Origin: Oscillospiraceae bacterium
GTDB taxonomy: Bacteria; Bacillota; Clostridia; Oscillospirales; Acutalibacteraceae
NCBI GenBank assembly: GCA_009784445.1
Contig: WRBQ01000002.1
Location: 35,860 to 99,859 of the forward strand
Direction of reading: 5' to 3'
DNA: 64,000 nucleotides
Numbering within the stretch: position 1 is the stretch's first letter; each line of letters begins with the position of its first letter. A program made the position numbers and the translations under genes. Below are positions 56,128 through 64,000 of this stretch, one piece after another. Below the pieces are notes generated by a model. That model saw only the letters and a program-made list of their open reading frames with translations, was not told where the DNA came from and searched no databases.

Positions 56128-56439
56128 ATGGAGATTAAGATCAACAAAGAAATCCGCGATTACACGGAAAGCGTGTTTTTCGGTCTATCGTTGCGGCAAT
56201 TCGCCTGTGCGTTGGCGGCTGTGGGTGCAGCGGTTGGCTGCTTTTTCGGTCTGCGCAACATTGTGGGCACAGATGTCGTCACATGGCTTTGCTTGTTTGC
56301 CGCCGCACCATTTGCGGCATTGGGCTTCGTCAAGTACAACGGCATGACCGCCGAACAACTCGCGATGGCGTGGCTGCGCTCGGAATGGTTTTTGCGCAAG
56401 CCATTGCCGTATTTGAAAGGAGGTGCCATGCATGATTAA
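56128..56439 (+). CDS. PrgI-family (VirB3-like) small membrane protein
   Basis: AAGGAG lies before the ATG. ...FFGLSLRQF... plus two TM helices, immediately upstream of virB4. Confidence 0.7.
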   Translation: MEIKINKEIRDYTESVFFGLSLRQFACALAAVGAAVGCFFGLRNIVGTDVVTWLCLFAAAPFAALGFVKYNGMTAEQLAMAWLRSEWFLRKPLPYLKGGAMHD

Positions 56440-58708
56440 AACCCTCGAAAAGCAAAACGAGCGAGATAACAAACGTGAGAAGTCGCCCAAGACCGCACAG
56501 GAAGTTCTGCCCATTCACACTGCCTATGACGACGGCATCTTCCTGCTGGGCAAGCAGAAGTATGCACAGACATGGCGTTTCACCGACATCAATTACGCCA
56601 TCGCTTCACGTGAGGACAAGGAAAGTTTTTTTCTGCGCTACAGCGACATCCTCAACTCCTGCGACATTGGCACAGTGACAAAGCTGACGATCATCCTGCG
56701 GCGCATGAACAGCTTGGACATCGAAAACGGCATACTCATTCCGTATCAAAATGATGATTTGGACGAGTATCGCCGCGAGTACAACGACTTTCTGCTGCAA
56801 AAGGCGGAAGATGCTAATTGCATGGTGCGTGAGTTGTATATCACTGTTACGGCGGACAAAGAAAGCCTTGACGAAGCCCGCACTTACTTTGCCCGCGTGG
56901 GCACAGAACTTACCGCCAACTTTGCCCGGCTGGATGCCAAGGTTGTGCCCGTGAACGGCGAAGAAAAGCTGCGCTTGCTGCATGATTTCTTCCGACCCGG
57001 CGAAGATTTTGCTGTGCCCGCTGATCCGCGTGACATCGCCCCTGCATCTTTTCAGTTCACAAAAGACCATTTCAAAATGGGCAACCGCTTTGGCCGTGCT
57101 TTGTTTCTCAAAGATTATGCTGCTTATCTGAAAGACCGCTTTCTTGCCGACCTGACCGACCGTGGGTGCAACTTGGTGTTGAGCATAGACATCATCCCTG
57201 TGCCCACGGATGAAGCGGTGAAGGAAGTCGAAAAGCGCAGGCTCGGTATTGAAACGAACATCGCAAACTACCAGCGCAAGCAGAACATAGCGAATAATTT
57301 CAGTGCTGTGTTGCCCTATGAAATGGAGTTGCAGCGCCAAGAGGCAAAGGAGTTCCAAGATGATTTGCTCAACCGTGACCAGCGGATGTTCTTTTCAAAC
57401 GTAACGTTGATGCATACGGCGGATAGCTTGAGTGAACTCAACAACGACACCGAGGGTATCCTCGCCACTGGGCGCAAACATACTTGCCAGCTTGCCCCGC
57501 TGAAATTCCAGCAGATGGATGGCTTGCTCACGGCATTGCCCATCGGGGTGCGCTATTTAACGGCACTGCGCACGTTGACCACGGAAAGCCTTGCTGTTCT
57601 CATGCCGTTTTGGGTACAGGAAATCCAAGACAGCGGCGGCGTGTACTTTGGGGATAATGCCATCAGCCGCAATCTCATCCTGTGCAACAAGGCCAAGCTG
57701 CAAAACCCAAATGCCTTTTTGCTGGGCATACCGGGCAGCGGCAAAAGCTTTTCTGCCAAAGAACTGATTGTGTTCCTCGCACTCGCAACGCAAGATGACA
57801 TTCTCGTGTGTGACCCGGAACGGGAATACGCGGCTTTGATTGAAGCGATGGGCGGCGAGGTCATTCGCATTGCAGCAGGCAGCAAAGACCACATCAATGC
57901 CCTTGACATGGCTGACGGCTATTCCGACGGTGACCCGATTGCCGAGAAGTCGGAGTTTATTCTATCACTGTTTGAGCAGCTGGACGATGCGGGCATTACA
58001 GGCAAACAACGGTCTCTGCTTGACCGCTGCTTGAGTGATGTTTATACCAAGTTCAAGCGCAAAAAGCGCCAGCCAACGCTCAAAGACCTGCGCGCTGAAT
58101 TGCTCGCGCAACCCGAACCCGATGCACATGAGCTTGCACTATCCCTCGAACTATTCACCAATGGCAGCTTGGATGTCTTTGCCCATGAAACGAATGTTGA
58201 TACCAAAAACCGCATGATTGTCTATGACATTTTCGGCTTGGGCAAGCAACTCAAGGCGATGGGTTTGCTGGTTGTCACCGATGCCATTCTCAATCGTGTG
58301 ACGGAGAATTGGCGGCAGGGCAAACGCACGCATATCTTTATTGATGAGTTCCATGTTTTATTTGAGAATGAGCACAGTGGTGAGTTCTTCAACTCGGCTT
58401 GGCGGCAATTCCGTAAGCGCAATGCATTCCCCACGGCTATTACGCAAAATGTCGAGTATTTGCTGGATTCTGTCCTTGCGAGTACGATGCTATCAAACTC
58501 GGAGTTCATTGTCATGCTCAACCAAGCCGCCAGTGACCGCGAGAACCTGGCCAAGCTGCTCAACATTTCGCCAGAGCAGATGTCGTATATAACCAACGCC
58601 GAGCCAGGACATGGGCTGATACGTTATGGTAGGGCGCTTGTGCCGTTCAAAAATGAGTTTCCCCGTGGTCGCTTATATGATTTAATGAGTACCAAGCCCG
58701 GGGATTAA
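56432..58708 (+). CDS. virB4: VirB4-family T4SS ATPase
   Basis: ATG 56432 lies 9 nt after AAGGAGG; the track start at 56423 is a GTG inside the RBS. Walker A is GIPGSGKS and Walker B is IFIDEFH. Confidence 0.9.
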   Translation: MIKTLEKQNERDNKREKSPKTAQEVLPIHTAYDDGIFLLGKQKYAQTWRFTDINYAIASREDKESFFLRYSDILNSCDIGTVTKLTIILRRMNSLDIENGILIPYQNDDLDEYRREYNDFLLQKAEDANCMVRELYITVTADKESLDEARTYFARVGTELTANFARLDAKVVPVNGEEKLRLLHDFFRPGEDFAVPADPRDIAPASFQFTKDHFKMGNRFGRALFLKDYAAYLKDRFLADLTDRGCNLVLSIDIIPVPTDEAVKEVEKRRLGIETNIANYQRKQNIANNFSAVLPYEMELQRQEAKEFQDDLLNRDQRMFFSNVTLMHTADSLSELNNDTEGILATGRKHTCQLAPLKFQQMDGLLTALPIGVRYLTALRTLTTESLAVLMPFWVQEIQDSGGVYFGDNAISRNLILCNKAKLQNPNAFLLGIPGSGKSFSAKELIVFLALATQDDILVCDPEREYAALIEAMGGEVIRIAAGSKDHINALDMADGYSDGDPIAEKSEFILSLFEQLDDAGITGKQRSLLDRCLSDVYTKFKRKKRQPTLKDLRAELLAQPEPDAHELALSLELFTNGSLDVFAHETNVDTKNRMIVYDIFGLGKQLKAMGLLVVTDAILNRVTENWRQGKRTHIFIDEFHVLFENEHSGEFFNSAWRQFRKRNAFPTAITQNVEYLLDSVLASTMLSNSEFIVMLNQAASDRENLAKLLNISPEQMSYITNAEPGHGLIRYGRALVPFKNEFPRGRLYDLMSTKPGD

Positions 58709-60344: not shown

Positions 60345-60406
60345 GGTATAATGAAACAAATGGCCTCGGCTGCGCGCCGAGGTCATTGTATAAAGGGGGT
60401 AACAAG

Positions 60407-61018
60407 ATGAAACTATTTGGGTATGTTCGAGTGAGCGATGCCAGCCAAAACGAAAGCCGTCAACTTATCTCGATGCAAGAACAAGGTGTGCCATCTAAAC
60501 ACATATATATGGATAAACAGTCCGGCAAAGATTTTGAGCGTAAGGCCTATCAGGCACTGCTCAAACGCTTACAACCCGGTGATTGTGTTTTTCTGCACAG
60601 CCTTGATAGACTTGGGCGTGATTACGTGGCCATATTAGAACAATGGCGGATTATAACCAAAGAAAAGGGCGCGGATATTATGGTGCTGGATATGCCATTG
60701 CTTGATACCCGTGAAAAAGAGCGCGACCTAACTGGGCGATTGATTGCAGATATTGTGTTGCAGCTGCTCAGTTATTGCGCACAAAAAGAGCGCGAAAGTA
60801 TCCGTCAACGCCAAGCCGAGGGCATTGCGGCGGCAAAACTGCGCGGTGTGCGCTTTGGCAGGCCGAGTGCAAAACTTCCCGCAAACTTCGGTGAGCTGGT
60901 GCACCAATGGGAGTGCGGGGCATTACCCTTTGAGGAAATACTCGCACAGTGCAAAATGAGCCGCTCGACGTTTTACAAACATCTCGCCATTTGGCGCATC
61001 CAACAGGATAATCAATAG
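60407..61018 (+). CDS. Small serine recombinase (resolvase/invertase type, 203 aa)
   Basis: MKLFGYVRVSDASQNESRQ holds the catalytic Ser region, and the C-terminal HTH is CKMSRSTFYKHL. The size matches Hin/Gin/resolvase proteins, not large serine integrases. Confidence 0.88.
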   Translation: MKLFGYVRVSDASQNESRQLISMQEQGVPSKHIYMDKQSGKDFERKAYQALLKRLQPGDCVFLHSLDRLGRDYVAILEQWRIITKEKGADIMVLDMPLLDTREKERDLTGRLIADIVLQLLSYCAQKERESIRQRQAEGIAAAKLRGVRFGRPSAKLPANFGELVHQWECGALPFEEILAQCKMSRSTFYKHLAIWRIQQDNQ

Positions 61019-61055
61019 CAGTCCGTATTGGTGTACTTTTATGGACTGCTTTGTT
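61018..61055 (+). terminator. Possible terminator after the recombinase gene
   Basis: GCAGTCC (61018-61024) pairs with GGACTGC (61043-61049) across an 18-nt loop, followed by TTTGTT. Confidence 0.4.
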
Positions 61056-61066
61056 AATAGCAGCAC

Positions 61067-61085
61067 ATCACACAACAGGAAGAAC
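61067..61085. repeat. Left inverted repeat of the candidate invertible segment
   Basis: ATCAcacAACAGGAAGAAC. The 12-bp core at 61074-61085 is perfectly complementary to 61391-61402. Confidence 0.55.
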
Positions 61086-61251
61086 TGCTAGGCTTTTTGT
61101 GCGTTTTCTTCCGAAAACGTCGTTTATTTCACCCAATACTTAGGCAAATTTCTGCGCTCATAACCTTTCCGCAATTGTACACTTTTGCAGAAAACTTCTG
61201 CTTCTCACCATGAATAATTGGAATATTTATGTAAAAAGTTTGTTGAAACTA

Positions 61252-61280
61252 TTGACAATGAATGGCTGATAATGTATAAT
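61252..61280 (+). promoter_or_regulatory. Consensus promoter facing the RHS-like ORF
   Basis: TTGACA (61252-61257), 17-nt spacer, TGtTATAAT (to 61280). Confidence 0.7.
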
Positions 61281-61390
61281 TATATGAAATAGTGTTAGGT
61301 TTTTGAATTAAATGATGTAAAACATTAACTCCTTGACAAGGGATTTTTTGGGGGATGTTTGAGCCGTAGCCCATGGTTGCATTTTACAGG

Positions 61391-61409
61391 GTTCTTCCTG
61401 TTTGATGAT
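61391..61409. repeat. Right inverted repeat of the candidate invertible segment
   Basis: GTTCTTCCTGTTtgaTGAT. The core at 61391-61402 is the reverse complement of 61074-61085. Confidence 0.55.
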
Positions 61410-61441
61410 ATAAAAACAGCATTGGTGTTGAGGAGAGAATT

Positions 61442-64000
61442 ATGAGATTTAAGAAGTATTTCATCCGTCCATTGTCTATTGTTTTGGCAATGGTTTTGTT
61501 GGTGCAATCCGCGCCCCTGCATGGTTTCGTGCCTGTGCGTGCGTTTGTGTTCCCCGTGACTACGTTGGACGAGCTGCCGGGAACACCAGAGATGCCCACA
61601 CAAGTGTCGCGTCACGTGAGCGAAGTGATGGAGCTGCGTACAGCAGACTCGCGCCATTTCCGCAACGAAGACGGCACGTATACAGCGTATGTATATCCGG
61701 ACATCATCCATTTTGAGGATAGCTATGGAAACTGGATAGAGATAGACAACACCTTGGTACGTCAGGGCGATTTTTATATTCCCCGGGCGAGTGGAATGGA
61801 CGTGCAGTTTCCCGCTGTGCTGGGTGAACAGGGTATTCGTATGCATACAGGTCGACATGGATTTTCGTTGGGTGTGCCGGGCGCGAATAGCGAAGCGATT
61901 GTGCCGGATTTGAATGTTGTGCAAGAGATTATGCTGGCGTATCTGATGCAAGGCATTGGTTTGGAAGATATCAATGTTGCTGACATTGACCTAGAAGCGC
62001 TTGTGGATTTCCCAGCGAAACTACTTAACCGAGAAATGGCCGCAGTGCGCAATTTGCAGTCGGTGGTATATTATTTGGACGTTTGGCCGGGCGCACACTT
62101 GGAATATATTTTGTCGCCGGAAGGCATTAAAGAGAACATCATCGTGATGCAACCCAAAGCGCAGTATGTCTACGAGTTTTCGCTGAATCTGTACAACCTG
62201 ATTGCGGTGCAGCGCAACGAGCGTGTGATTGTGCTTTACTGCGAGGTGATGGGCAGAGCACAAATGGTGATTGAAGCGCCGTATGCGAGAGACGCAGCAG
62301 GCGTGCAGAATTTTGAAGCACTGACGATTTCTTTGGATGAAAATACGCTAACATTGACAGCCTGCTCGGATTGGATGAATGCCCCGGAGCGGGAATTTCC
62401 TGTTGTGTTGGACCCTACATATATTTCTGTGGCGGATACTAGCCGGATTATGTGGCTGGATGTGCATGAGCGCGGCGGTCAACGGTCGGGTCTGTTTGAC
62501 TTTAACATGGAAGTTGGCACTAGCTCCCTGCAATTTATGGATCATACTTTGTTCCCGCAAACTAGCCGTGGATACTTGCAGTTTCCGATGCCTCGCATGC
62601 CGCAAGATGCGGTGCCGATAAATGCAACACTGATCTTGGATGATGATGCAAGTCCTTGGTGGTTAAACCTAGTCAACTGGCTGGTAATGCTTGCCGGACC
62701 AATTATTCGTGTGTTGCTCGCTGGTGTGGACGTGGCCACAGGCGGGATTAGTTTAATTTTGCTTAATCAGCTGTGGAGTTTTATTGCTTCGTTGCCAGCA
62801 CGGATTTTCAATGCTGTTTTGGGGGCCGCTGGCGGCCCGCCATCGCGGGACTATGAGGTGAATCTTCGCGCAGAAATGGTGTTGGAACAATGGTCTCCCG
62901 CGCGCAATGATGTGACAGGAGCCTTGGTTGAAGCAACCGGCGGTCCGGCAAGAATGACTTGGGATAACCAGCCCGCCACCACGGGTATCGCTTTGGCATT
63001 GGGTGAACCCCTTGAACCCGATGACAGCAGCGGCTGGATGCGGGCATTGCAAGGCTTTGGTCAAGGTCAAATTCCATTCTCAGGGCAGTATTCGTTTGAC
63101 ATTACGGATGCAGTGCGGCATTGGGCAGAAGTGGGTGAGCAATATAACTTCGGCATTATGTTGCGTGCGGATGATGAGAGTCTCAACTCGGAAAATATGC
63201 TCAACTTTGCCATGGGTTCAATTGCAACAAGTATACCGATAGACTTGAGCAGCGTGGTAGGCTTCTTCGCGAATGTAGCTTATTGGGTGGTTGGACAAAT
63301 GTTGCCATCTGAAGGCACGCCAGGTACGTTGCTAAACGCAGCATATATGGTATTTGGTATGCTCAGCGATACAATCGGCGCAGGTTTTTCGATTCCTATC
63401 TTGGTCAACAATCTGACCTCTGATCCAATTGTAGCGATTACGTATATTTCCACAACAGGTTTGCAGCCATTCTTCAGTTATGAGACAGTGAATATGGGTC
63501 GTGCAGGCACGGCACACGTGAATCACTTCACAGGCGGACTGACCGTTACCCACCCCACGGTGCAGCTGGACGGCGAACGCATGCCGGTTGGGCTTTCGCA
63601 TGTGTATATGAGCAACCACGACAGTGCGCCGGGGCAAGTTTGGAATATGAACTTAGGCGTGGGTTTCCGACTCAATGTGATGGAAATGATAAAGCCCGCG
63701 AACTATTACGAACAATTTAATTTCATGGCACTGGTATTTGAGTTCATTGACCGTATGGGGCAGTGGATATTCCCCGACGCGTTTGAGAACGAGAACGCGG
63801 TTTGGGAATGGATACGTGATAATGTTGGTGATTACTTCAATAATCCAACGCAATACTATATGTTTATGGATGGCACCGGAGGGATGCACCGTTTTGTGCA
63901 GGACACCGAAGATGAAGGGCGTTTTACATTTGTTAAGCAAACAAATCCAACGATAACGATGCGGCGTGCAGGCGGCGGACCTCTCTTCCCGGAGCGCATT
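61442..64000 (+). CDS. N-terminal 853 aa of a large secreted RHS/YD-repeat-type (polymorphic toxin-like) protein with a DNRLRE-like domain; continues beyond the window
   Basis: This ORF is not in the supplied track because it has no stop in the window. I translated frame 2 by hand from ATG 61442 (GGAG at 61432-61435) to base 64000 and found no stop codon. Features seen are a signal-like N-terminus, then TWDNQP ... FDITDAVRHWAE...NFGIML (DNRLRE-like). The RHS-type entry motif GTAHVNHFTGGLTVTHPTVQLDGERMPVGLSHVYMS follows. Confidence 0.8.
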   Translation, partial: MRFKKYFIRPLSIVLAMVLLVQSAPLHGFVPVRAFVFPVTTLDELPGTPEMPTQVSRHVSEVMELRTADSRHFRNEDGTYTAYVYPDIIHFEDSYGNWIEIDNTLVRQGDFYIPRASGMDVQFPAVLGEQGIRMHTGRHGFSLGVPGANSEAIVPDLNVVQEIMLAYLMQGIGLEDINVADIDLEALVDFPAKLLNREMAAVRNLQSVVYYLDVWPGAHLEYILSPEGIKENIIVMQPKAQYVYEFSLNLYNLIAVQRNERVIVLYCEVMGRAQMVIEAPYARDAAGVQNFEALTISLDENTLTLTACSDWMNAPEREFPVVLDPTYISVADTSRIMWLDVHERGGQRSGLFDFNMEVGTSSLQFMDHTLFPQTSRGYLQFPMPRMPQDAVPINATLILDDDASPWWLNLVNWLVMLAGPIIRVLLAGVDVATGGISLILLNQLWSFIASLPARIFNAVLGAAGGPPSRDYEVNLRAEMVLEQWSPARNDVTGALVEATGGPARMTWDNQPATTGIALALGEPLEPDDSSGWMRALQGFGQGQIPFSGQYSFDITDAVRHWAEVGEQYNFGIMLRADDESLNSENMLNFAMGSIATSIPIDLSSVVGFFANVAYWVVGQMLPSEGTPGTLLNAAYMVFGMLSDTIGAGFSIPILVNNLTSDPIVAITYISTTGLQPFFSYETVNMGRAGTAHVNHFTGGLTVTHPTVQLDGERMPVGLSHVYMSNHDSAPGQVWNMNLGVGFRLNVMEMIKPANYYEQFNFMALVFEFIDRMGQWIFPDAFENENAVWEWIRDNVGDYFNNPTQYYMFMDGTGGMHRFVQDTEDEGRFTFVKQTNPTITMRRAGGGPLFPERI

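What the first reader, a model, noticed from the sequence alone, without database searches (positions are those of the whole stretch)
61067..61409. Candidate invertible promoter (inverton) between a small serine recombinase and an RHS-type toxin gene
A perfect 12-bp inverted repeat, AACAGGAAGAAC (61074-61085) and GTTCTTCCTGTT (61391-61402), extends to 16 of 19 matches (61067-61085 versus 61391-61409). It brackets a ~305-bp AT-rich segment.

That segment contains a textbook promoter (TTGACA 61252-61257, 17-nt spacer, TGtTATAAT ending 61280). The promoter points at the long ORF starting at 61442.

The left arm lies about 50 nt after the stop of a 203-aa resolvase/invertase-type serine recombinase (60407-61018). 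The segment also carries a hairpin plus T-run (about 61102-61130) that would insulate it from recombinase read-through.

This is the architecture of Hin/Gin-like and gut-bacterial phase-variation switches. In the orientation seen here the toxin gene would be ON. My rough expectation for a perfect 12-bp inverted match inside a ~420-bp interval is well below 0.01.

Caveat: 12 bp is short compared with classic ~26-bp serine-invertase sites, and neither arm is obviously dyad-symmetric.
Basis: partly seen in the sequence, partly recalled or inferred. Interest (0 to 1): 0.78.

Follow-up and report, generated by a model that had tools for sequence, protein, structure and literature searches.

The report
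Real DNA switch, but different repeats
The 12-bp inverted repeat is real but probably a coincidence; the recombinase's true flip sites lie beside it and bracket a smaller 144-bp segment of a common, little-described on/off switch family in gut Clostridia, and the strong toxin-gene promoter lies outside that segment.

Summary
**Observation.** It is confirmed: a 12-bp perfect inverted repeat (16/19), a 12/12 promoter and a weak hairpin lie where stated.

**Why the repeat is probably chance.**
- The window holds nine such repeats, against about 3.3 expected.
- The arms are absent from every related locus.
- The arms do not resemble this recombinase family's sites.

**What is really there.** In 172 related loci, homologous recombinase genes are followed by two ~22-30-bp dyad-symmetric sites.
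- Their central dinucleotides are always reverse complements.
- They lie 96-196 bp apart (one case 364 bp), in ~10.3-bp steps.
- They enclose an outward-facing promoter.
- Six element lineages show the enclosed segment in both orientations. In one pair the flanks are 100% identical.

**In the window.** The same sites sit at 61019-61048 (core GT 61033-34) and 61166-61193 (core AC 61179-80), so the invertible segment is 61035-61178.
- Its own promoter has decayed.

**Verdict.** The RHS gene is most likely driven by a fixed promoter. The switch is real by homology, but neither its flipping nor its regulatory output is shown for this window. The inverton idea is right in kind and wrong in anatomy. 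It is a new member of a known kind.

The parts
60407..61018 (+). Small serine recombinase (203 aa), the invertase of the switch
   Evidence: PF00239 at E 7e-25. The catalytic motif YVRVSDASQ and SLDRLGRD are intact. Best matches among solved structures are Sin/Bin3, Tn3 and gamma-delta resolvases, then Gin. It is the only copy in the window.
61019..61048 (.). Left crossover site (siteL): CAGTCCGTATTGGT.GT.ACTTTTATGGACTG, with core GGTGTAC at 61030-61036 and central dinucleotide GT at 61033-61034
   Evidence: It matches the subfamily consensus CAGTCCGTAAAGGT.GT.ACTTTTACGGACTG of the 76-79% relatives. The pattern search hits 61023-61044 on the + strand, with 0.06 hits expected per window. It also forms a -17.1 kcal/mol hairpin, z -5.9, right after the stop codon.
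61035..61178 (.). Predicted invertible segment (144 bp; 146 bp between the starts of the two central dinucleotides)
   Evidence: It lies between the two central dinucleotides. The spacing falls in the family's 146-149 bp class. Equivalent segments are found in both orientations in six related lineages. Inversion in this window itself has not been observed.
61054..61066 (-). Decayed remnant of the switch promoter (TGCTATTAA, and/or TGTGCT where relatives carry a TGnTATAAT-type -10)
   Evidence: Relatives carry TTGCAA/TTGCGC-17-TGnTAnAnT here on the minus strand. The best window score is 8 (the scale tops at 14), against 10-13 in most relatives, and the -10 lacks the final T. The alignment to L002 and L082 is tentative.
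61101..61120 (+). Weak one-directional terminator-like hairpin inside the invertible segment
   Evidence: Eight pairs followed by a T-rich tail; -8 kcal/mol, z -2.2.
61166..61193 (.). Right crossover site (siteR): TTTCCGCAATTGT.AC.ACTTTTGCAGAAA, with core GTACAC at 61177-61182 and central dinucleotide AC at 61179-61180
   Evidence: The pattern search hits 61169-61190 on the - strand with one mismatch. The central AC is the reverse complement of siteL's GT, as in all 87 family pairs.
61067..61085 (.). It is probably not a recombination site and lies inside the true invertible segment
   Evidence: It is not conserved in L002, L082 or L083. It aligns, tentatively, with the spacer of the ancestral switch promoter.
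61391..61409 (.). It lies in the 5' untranslated region of the RHS gene and is probably a chance match
   Evidence: It is absent upstream of homologous RHS-type genes.
61252..61280 (+). Fixed consensus sigma-70-type promoter of the RHS gene, outside the switch
   Evidence: It scores 12/12 and lies 59 nt beyond the end of siteR (72 nt beyond its central AC). Homologous RHS-type genes also have their own TTGACA-17-TAnnnT promoters.
61442..64000 (+). 5' part of a 2498-aa secreted RHS/YD-repeat protein gene, which runs off the window
   Evidence: Signal-peptide-like N-terminus. RHS_repeat at E 3.7e-10 on the full gene in L173. Precomputed TEN_YD-shell hit.

Best explanation
The window carries one copy of a widespread Clostridia phase-variation cassette. 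The cassette is a Sin/resolvase-like small serine recombinase whose stop codon is followed at once by two dyad-symmetric crossover sites in inverted orientation.

**How the family works**
- Shown: the segment between the two sites, about 100-200 bp, is found in both orientations among near-identical natural copies, with the exchange point at the core.
- Inferred: the recombinase binds both sites, cuts at the 2-bp core and flips the segment.
- Inferred: flipping turns an outward-facing promoter either towards the downstream cargo gene (ON) or back towards the recombinase gene (OFF).

**In this window**
- The sites are at 61019-61048 (core GT) and 61166-61193 (core AC), so the invertible segment is 61035-61178.
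- Its internal promoter has decayed.
- The RHS toxin gene is instead driven by its own fixed consensus promoter at 61252-61280, downstream of the switch.
One copy lies inside the real switch and the other in the RHS 5' untranslated region.

**Not shown.** Whether the window's own segment still flips, and whether flipping changes RHS expression.
For: **1. Conserved architecture**
- 70 of 113 non-redundant homologous loci have an inverted repeat scoring 12 or more that starts within about 70 nt after the stop codon. The figures are 0 of 96 for the mirrored upstream control and 0 of 113 for shuffles.
- The consensus is TGTCAAAAGGT.GT.ACTTTTTGACA.

**2. Central dinucleotides**
- All 87 detected pairs have reverse-complementary centres: GT/AC 58, AC/GT 16, AT/AT 12, CT/AG 1. 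No locus had two strong sites with non-complementary centres.

**3. Direct evidence of inversion**
- L056 vs L112: flanks 100% identical over 611 and 609 nt, interior 99.4% identical but reverse-complemented end to end. The inner half-sites are swapped and the outer halves and core are kept.
- The same is seen in L024 vs L103, L146 vs L140/141/142/150/155 and L004 vs L016/L018.
- It is also seen in L080 vs L073/074 and L152 vs L161.

**4. Promoter inside the segment**
- A TTGnnn-17-(TGn)TAnAAT promoter has its -10 ending mostly 18-40 nt from one core and points outward. It faces the recombinase in 61 loci and the cargo gene in 18, with 8 ties.

**5. Site spacing**
- Spacing is phased at about 10.25 bp, Rayleigh R 0.69. 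The window's 146 bp fits a class.

**6. Assembly breaks**
- 17 contigs end within 100 nt after the stop codon, against 2 ending within 100 nt before the start.

**7. The window itself**
- The subfamily site pattern hits only 61023-61044 (+) and 61169-61190 (-) in 64 kb, with 0.06 hits expected.
- Relatives at 76-79% identity (L162, L163, L167, L082, L002) share the site sequence CAGTCCGTAAAGGTGTACTTTTACGGACTG.

**8. The 12-mer arms**
- They are not conserved.
- The window holds nine such repeats against 3.3 expected.
Against: - No sequence shows the window's own 144-bp segment flipped. The only other copy (L001/L173) is identical and in the same orientation.
- The window's half-sites carry 2-3 mismatches each to the subfamily consensus, and the two sites share only about 7 bp of mutual inverted repeat.
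- The internal promoter is degenerate. The switch may therefore be a relic with no regulatory output.
- The ON/OFF promoter calls rest on a simple consensus score.
- The statistics for core complementarity and helical phasing are not corrected for shared ancestry.
Confidence: 0.75

Rival explanations
1. The 12-bp (16/19) inverted repeat at 61067-85 and 61391-409 forms the recombination sites, and the 305-bp segment carrying the consensus promoter flips to switch the RHS gene ON and OFF.
For: The repeat is real and locally unlikely, P about 0.009. It brackets a 12/12 promoter. It lies next to a serine recombinase.
Against: - The arms have no dyad symmetry and no GTGTAC-type core, unlike the sites used by this recombinase family.
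- They are not conserved in any relative.
- The left arm lies inside the homology-defined invertible segment. One flip of that segment would turn the pair into a direct repeat.
- Nine equal or better repeats occur in the window, against 3.3 expected.
- RHS homologues elsewhere have fixed promoters.
Confidence: 0.05
2. The two dyad sites in this window are no longer recombination substrates. They survive only as recombinase-binding operators or as a terminator hairpin of a decayed switch. The recombinase now serves another role, for example multimer resolution of the conjugative element.
For: - The internal promoter has decayed.
- The half-sites carry 2-3 mismatches.
- siteL is a strong hairpin right after the stop codon.
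- The closest solved relatives are resolvases: Sin, Tn3 and gamma-delta.
- The gene sits in a type IV secretion operon with PrgI, a VirB4-like ATPase and an M23 peptidase.
Against: - The recombinase ORF is intact.
- Both sites keep the core, complementary central dinucleotides and a spacing that fits a family phase class.
- The right sites of functional-looking relatives are about as degenerate.
- No directly repeated res-like site was seen.
Confidence: 0.15
3. The switch still flips and has been repurposed. Having lost its promoter, the segment acts through its one-directional hairpin and T-run. In the present orientation it insulates the RHS gene from read-through out of the conjugation operon. 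In the other orientation it lets that read-through pass.
For: The hairpin with its T-rich tail reads as a terminator only on the + strand in the present orientation. It lies inside the segment. The upstream genes are co-oriented.
Against: - The hairpin is weak (-8 kcal/mol, z -2.2).
- The siteL hairpin (-17 kcal/mol) sits outside the flipping part and would still block read-through.
- The RHS gene has a consensus promoter of its own.
- No equivalent terminator was noticed in the relatives' segments, although this was not surveyed systematically.
Confidence: 0.05

Closest known systems
Hin/Gin/Cin/Pin DNA invertase systems (Salmonella flagellar switch, phage Mu G segment)
   Same: A small serine recombinase acts on two imperfectly dyad-symmetric sites of about 26 bp in inverted orientation. 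Polarity is set by a 2-bp asymmetric core. In Hin the flipped segment also carries a promoter.
   Different: - By sequence this recombinase is closer to Sin, Tn3 and gamma-delta resolvases than to Gin.
- Its gene lies outside the flipped DNA.
- The flipped segment is only 96-196 bp (one case 364 bp) and is helically phased, not about 1-3 kb.
- From established knowledge, Firmicutes lack Fis. A Fis-bound enhancer is therefore unlikely. None was looked for.
Bacteroides Mpi/Tsr-type serine-recombinase invertible promoters, and gut 'invertons' found by PhaseFinder-type surveys
   Same: A short intergenic promoter-bearing segment is flanked by inverted repeats and flipped by a serine recombinase encoded outside it. 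The cargo is surface proteins, restriction-modification and similar genes. Surveys report invertons in Clostridia-like Firmicutes (PMC11892184, PMC5903667).
   Different: - The match to the Mpi NCBIfam model is far below its cut-off: 37 bits against 272.
- The site sequence differs, and each arm is itself a full dyad.
- The relation is one recombinase to one adjacent switch, not a master recombinase serving many loci.
- I found no paper in the held library that describes this family or its site.
Sin and beta recombinases and the Tn552 Bin3 invertase of Gram-positive plasmids
   Same: These are the closest solved relatives, at E 4e-22 for Bin3/Sin. From established knowledge, they are small serine recombinases of Firmicutes that rely on an HU/Hbsu-type bending protein, and beta can invert between inversely oriented sites.
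   Different: Those systems use compound sites made of a crossover site plus an accessory site, and they mainly resolve multimers. Here there are two simple dyad sites 96-196 bp apart (one case 364 bp) enclosing a promoter, and natural copies show inversion.

Membership tests
Clostridia small-serine-invertase switch family defined here | Small serine recombinase gene (PF00239) with an intact catalytic serine motif | tested here: met
Clostridia small-serine-invertase switch family defined here | Two dyad-symmetric sites with a GT-NN-AC core, the first within about 40 nt after the stop codon and the second 96-196 bp further on | tested here: met
   Sites at 61019-61048 and 61166-61193. Expected pattern hits per window: 0.06.
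Clostridia small-serine-invertase switch family defined here | Central dinucleotides of the two sites are reverse complements | tested here: met
   GT at 61033-34 and AC at 61179-80. The family shows this in 87 of 87 pairs.
Clostridia small-serine-invertase switch family defined here | Site spacing falls in one of the ~10.3-bp phase classes | tested here: met
   146 bp, in the 146-149 class.
Clostridia small-serine-invertase switch family defined here | Outward-facing sigma-70-type promoter inside the segment, with its -10 ending 18-40 nt from a core | tested here: not met
   The best candidate is TTCCTG-16-TGCTATTAA, scoring 8 (the scale tops at 14), against 10-13 in most relatives. It looks like a decayed remnant.
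Clostridia small-serine-invertase switch family defined here | Segment found in both orientations | not testable with these tools
   This is met for six related lineages. For this window only one other, identical copy exists, and no reads were available.
   The arms are absent from L002, L082 and L083. They are absent in a comparable position from all 172 other loci.
   AACAGGAAGAAC has no dyad symmetry and no GTGTAC-type core.
Hin/Gin-type Fis-dependent invertases | Recombinase sequence groups with Hin/Gin | tested here: not met
   Gin scores E 3e-12. Sin/Bin3, Tn3 and gamma-delta resolvases score E 4e-22 to 2e-19.
Hin/Gin-type Fis-dependent invertases | Recombinational enhancer with Fis sites in cis | not tested
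   No enhancer search was done.
Tn3/Sin-type resolution (res) site | Sites act in direct repeat to resolve multimers; compound site with accessory subsites | tested here: not met
   The sites are inverted, they enclose variable DNA of 96-364 bp, and natural copies differ by inversion.
RHS/YD-repeat polymorphic toxin | RHS/YD repeats forming a shell | tested here: met
   PF05593 at E 3.7e-10. Precomputed PF25023 TEN_YD-shell hit.
RHS/YD-repeat polymorphic toxin | C-terminal toxin domain followed by an immunity gene | tested here: inconclusive
   No Pfam domain was found at the C-terminus. Three small ORFs of 148, 207 and 148 aa follow, none with a Pfam hit.

The most novel reading that the evidence does not exclude
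The recombinase and its switch form an uncharacterised, horizontally mobile 'plug-in' phase-variation cassette of gut Clostridia. Its parts are a Sin-like invertase and an ultra-short, helically phased inverton whose 2-bp cores are orthogonal between sub-lineages. In this conjugative element it may have been repurposed: the promoter-less invertible segment, with its one-directional terminator, would gate read-through from the type IV secretion operon into the RHS toxin gene. That would couple toxin dosage to conjugation in a phase-variable way.
Probability: 0.1. Interest if true: 0.65.

Novelty: new member of a known kind. Interest (0 to 1): 0.45.

Why it matters
**For this window.** It corrects an attractive but wrong annotation. 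The RHS toxin's consensus promoter is not invertible, so 'phase-variable toxin' should not be claimed from the 12-bp repeat.

**More broadly.** The comparison defines a large family: more than 8000 homologues at E <= 1e-20, which was the cap of that search. Not all of these are shown to carry a switch. The family's rules are simple and testable:
- dyad sites that abut the recombinase stop codon;
- complementary 2-bp cores;
- spacing phased at about 10.3 bp;
- an outward-facing promoter.

**Practical uses**
- These rules would let invertons be annotated in Clostridia genomes and MAGs without read data.
- They explain a recurrent assembly breakpoint just after these recombinase genes.
- They point to phase-variable surface proteins, flagellin, restriction-modification and defence genes in Lachnospiraceae and Oscillospiraceae.
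- The very short phased loop is a tractable case for studying synapsis by a small serine recombinase.

Tried and rejected
- **Other orientation of the window's own junction.** The exact-protein look-up gave only one other contig, identical and in the same orientation.
- **Orienting the window's segment against L002, L082 and L083.** The interiors are too diverged. The reverse-complement match to L002 has z 6.6 against 3.5 forward, which is only suggestive.
- **RHS N-terminal homologues.** None sits next to a small recombinase and none shares the upstream DNA. They could not test orientation, but they do show that such genes normally carry fixed promoters.
- **Rfam scan of 60900-61600.** Nothing credible; the best hit has E 0.68.
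- **NCBIfam.** No model reaches its cut-off. Mpi scores 37 bits against 272, and XisF 48 against 375.
- **Literature.** Five searches and six paper look-ups, one of which failed because the paper is not held. They found general inverton surveys, including Clostridia, but no description of this family or site. The supplementary tables that might list it are not held.
- **res-site reading of the two dyads.** Considered and rejected, because natural copies differ by clean inversion.
- **Second recombinase or extra sites in the window.** None found.

Full report
**Observation**

The reported features are all present.
- The arms 61067-61085 and 61391-61409 are 84% complementary over 19 nt, with a perfect 12-mer and 305 nt between them.
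- A 12/12 TTGACA-17-TATAAT promoter lies at 61252-61280.
- A weak hairpin with a T-rich tail lies at 61101-61120, at -8 kcal/mol.
- The upstream ORF 60407-61018 is a 203-aa PF00239 serine recombinase.
- The ORF from 61442 is the start of a 2498-aa RHS-repeat protein.

Only the 'TGn' extended -10 is not there.

A perfect repeat of 12 bp or more appears in 0.9% of shuffles of this 423-nt spacer. The 64-kb window, however, holds nine such repeats, against 3.25 +/- 1.7 expected. The repeat alone therefore proves nothing.

**Context**

The recombinase follows PrgI, a VirB4-like ATPase and an M23 peptidase, which form a conjugative type IV secretion module. The identical protein is annotated from an Oscillospiraceae MAG. 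Its closest solved relatives are Sin/Bin3, Tn3 and gamma-delta resolvases, ahead of Gin. No NCBIfam model reaches its cut-off.

**What relatives show**

I fetched 172 loci, 167 of which encode homologues of the recombinase at 54-79% identity.
- *Conserved repeat pair.* Right after the stop codon, most loci carry a conserved pair of sites with consensus TGTCAAAAGGT.GT.ACTTTTTGACA. Each is a near-palindrome of 20-30 bp around a 2-bp centre.
- *Unbiased scan.* 70 of 113 non-redundant loci have an inverted repeat scoring 12 or more in that position. The mirrored upstream control gives 0 of 96 and shuffles give 0 of 113. Sub-lineages with other site sequences keep the same layout.
- *Central dinucleotides.* In all 87 detected pairs they are reverse complements: GT/AC 58, AC/GT 16, AT/AT 12, CT/AG 1. 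A serine recombinase, which must religate 2-nt overhangs, requires this of inverted crossover sites.
- *Spacing.* Centre-to-centre distances fall in classes 96, 115-117, 125-129, 136-140, 146-149, 156-160, 166-169, 179 and 196. The period is about 10.25 bp, with Rayleigh R 0.69.

**Inversion is seen directly**

- L056 and L112 have 100% identical flanks (611 and 609 nt). Their 145-bp interiors are 99.4% identical but reverse-complemented end to end.
- In that pair the inner half-sites are exchanged as reverse complements, while the outer halves and the core are kept. This places the crossover within the 6-bp core.
- The same is seen for L024/L103, L146 against five relatives, and L004 against L016/L018.
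- It is also seen for L080 against L073/074 and L152/L161.
- L080 is a hairpin contig that joins an inverted-state junction to a non-inverted one. This suggests that both states coexisted in one sample.
- Contigs break just after these genes far more often than before them: 17 against 2 within 100 nt. Several stop inside a site.

**What the segment carries**

- Nearly every segment holds a TTGnnn-17-(TGn)TAnAAT promoter. Its -10 mostly ends 18-19, 28-29 or 38-40 nt from one core, and it points outward.
- The promoter faces the recombinase in 61 loci and the downstream gene in 18, with 8 ties.
- The downstream genes are typical phase-variable cargo:
  - secreted surface proteins (Flg_new, SHIRT, LRR, GLUG);
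  - a flagellin;
  - AMP-binding enzymes;
  - restriction-modification and TIR proteins;
  - a C39/ABC exporter.

**The window**

- The closest relatives (L162, L163, L167, L082, L002; 76-79% identity) share the site CAGTCCGTAAAGGT.GT.ACTTTTACGGACTG.
- The window has CAGTCCGTATTGGT.GT.ACTTTTATGGACTG at 61019-61048 and TTTCCGCAATTGT.AC.ACTTTTGCAGA at 61166-61193.
- A pattern built from the subfamily hits only these two places in 64 kb, on opposite strands, with 0.06 hits expected.
- The predicted invertible segment is therefore 61035-61178. The consensus promoter lies 59 nt beyond the end of siteR (72 nt beyond its central AC).
- All five close relatives have a good promoter inside the segment. 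The window has only TGCTATTAA/TGTGCT with a poor -35, so its switch promoter looks decayed.
- siteL also forms a -17 kcal/mol hairpin.
- The two sites share only about 7 bp of mutual repeat. That explains why an eye search for inverted repeats missed them.

**The 12-mer arms**

- They are absent from the 77-79% relatives and, in any comparable position, from all other loci.
- They bear no resemblance to the family site.
- The left arm aligns, tentatively, with the spacer of the ancestral switch promoter.
- RHS-type homologues elsewhere carry their own fixed TTGACA-type promoters and have no small recombinase beside them.

I conclude that the match is chance.

**Mechanism**

- Shown: inversion in the family, the position of the crossover, the promoter content of the segment, and the phased spacing.
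- Inferred: the window's recombinase acts on its two sites, and a DNA-bending protein helps to close the roughly 140-bp loop.
- Inferred: the window's switch now has little or no effect on the RHS gene, which is read from 61252-61280.

**Known or new**

Serine-recombinase invertible promoters are well known, from Hin, Mpi/Tsr and gut inverton surveys such as PMC11892184 and PMC5903667. I found no description of this particular family, its site or its phasing in the held literature. That does not prove it is undescribed. I file the window's feature as a new member of a known kind.

Noticed in passing
67 non-redundant related loci (e.g. L024 96 bp, L056 147 bp, L016 179 bp); window 61033-61180: The distances between the two crossover cores cluster in steps of about 10.25 bp (96, 115-117, 125-129, 136-140, 146-149, 156-160, 166-169, 179, 196). 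The distance from the promoter's -10 to the core also steps: 18-19, 28-29, 38-40. This suggests a helical-phase constraint on synapsis in a very short loop.
   Followed up: partly
L096, +24 to +400 after the recombinase stop codon: Four sites lie in tandem, with central dinucleotides AC, GT, AG and CT. This looks like two adjacent switches whose orthogonal cores would keep them from cross-recombining.
   Followed up: no
L080 (whole contig), compared with L073 and L074: L080 is a hairpin-shaped contig. It reads recombinase 3' end, site, flipped segment, then the same site and recombinase end in reverse complement (a 95-nt inverted duplication). This is an assembly signature of mixed orientations in one sample.
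   Followed up: partly
161 related loci, contig ends: 17 contigs end within 100 nt after the recombinase stop codon, against 2 ending within 100 nt before its start. Several end exactly in the site core (L046, L048, L136) or 11-14 nt past it (L015, L029, L041). This is a recurrent assembly breakpoint.
   Followed up: yes
L173:14512-16415 (downstream of the RHS gene, beyond the window's end): The 2498-aa RHS gene is followed by small ORFs of 148, 207, 148 and 89 aa; the first three were scanned and have no Pfam match. The layout resembles an immunity gene plus orphan modules, followed by a large LRR protein.
   Followed up: partly
window 61279-61307 (- strand): A second promoter-like site, TTCAAA-17-TATAAT (10/12), lies on the minus strand. 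It shares the palindromic TATAATTATA with the + strand -10, so the fixed promoter region could fire divergently.
   Followed up: no
window 60359-60387: A G+C-rich hairpin (GGCCTCGGC...GCCGAGGTC) lies between the M23 peptidase gene and the recombinase start. On the minus strand it scores as a terminator. A TATAAT at 60348-60353 precedes it.
   Followed up: no
L084-L086, L109/L135, L131, L152/L161: Sub-lineages of the recombinase use different site sequences, for example TCCCAAACCTCTACCTTTGGGA, GTAGACTTTCCTGCGCA and GTTTGAAAAGGTACAGGTTT. The layout is the same. This suggests co-evolution of the recombinase's DNA-binding domain with its site.
   Followed up: partly
window 56322-56334 / 56867-56879 and seven other pairs: Eight other perfect inverted repeats of 12-13 bp at 185-838 nt spacing occur in the window. 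Most appear to lie inside long ORFs, and they are probably chance matches.
   Followed up: no
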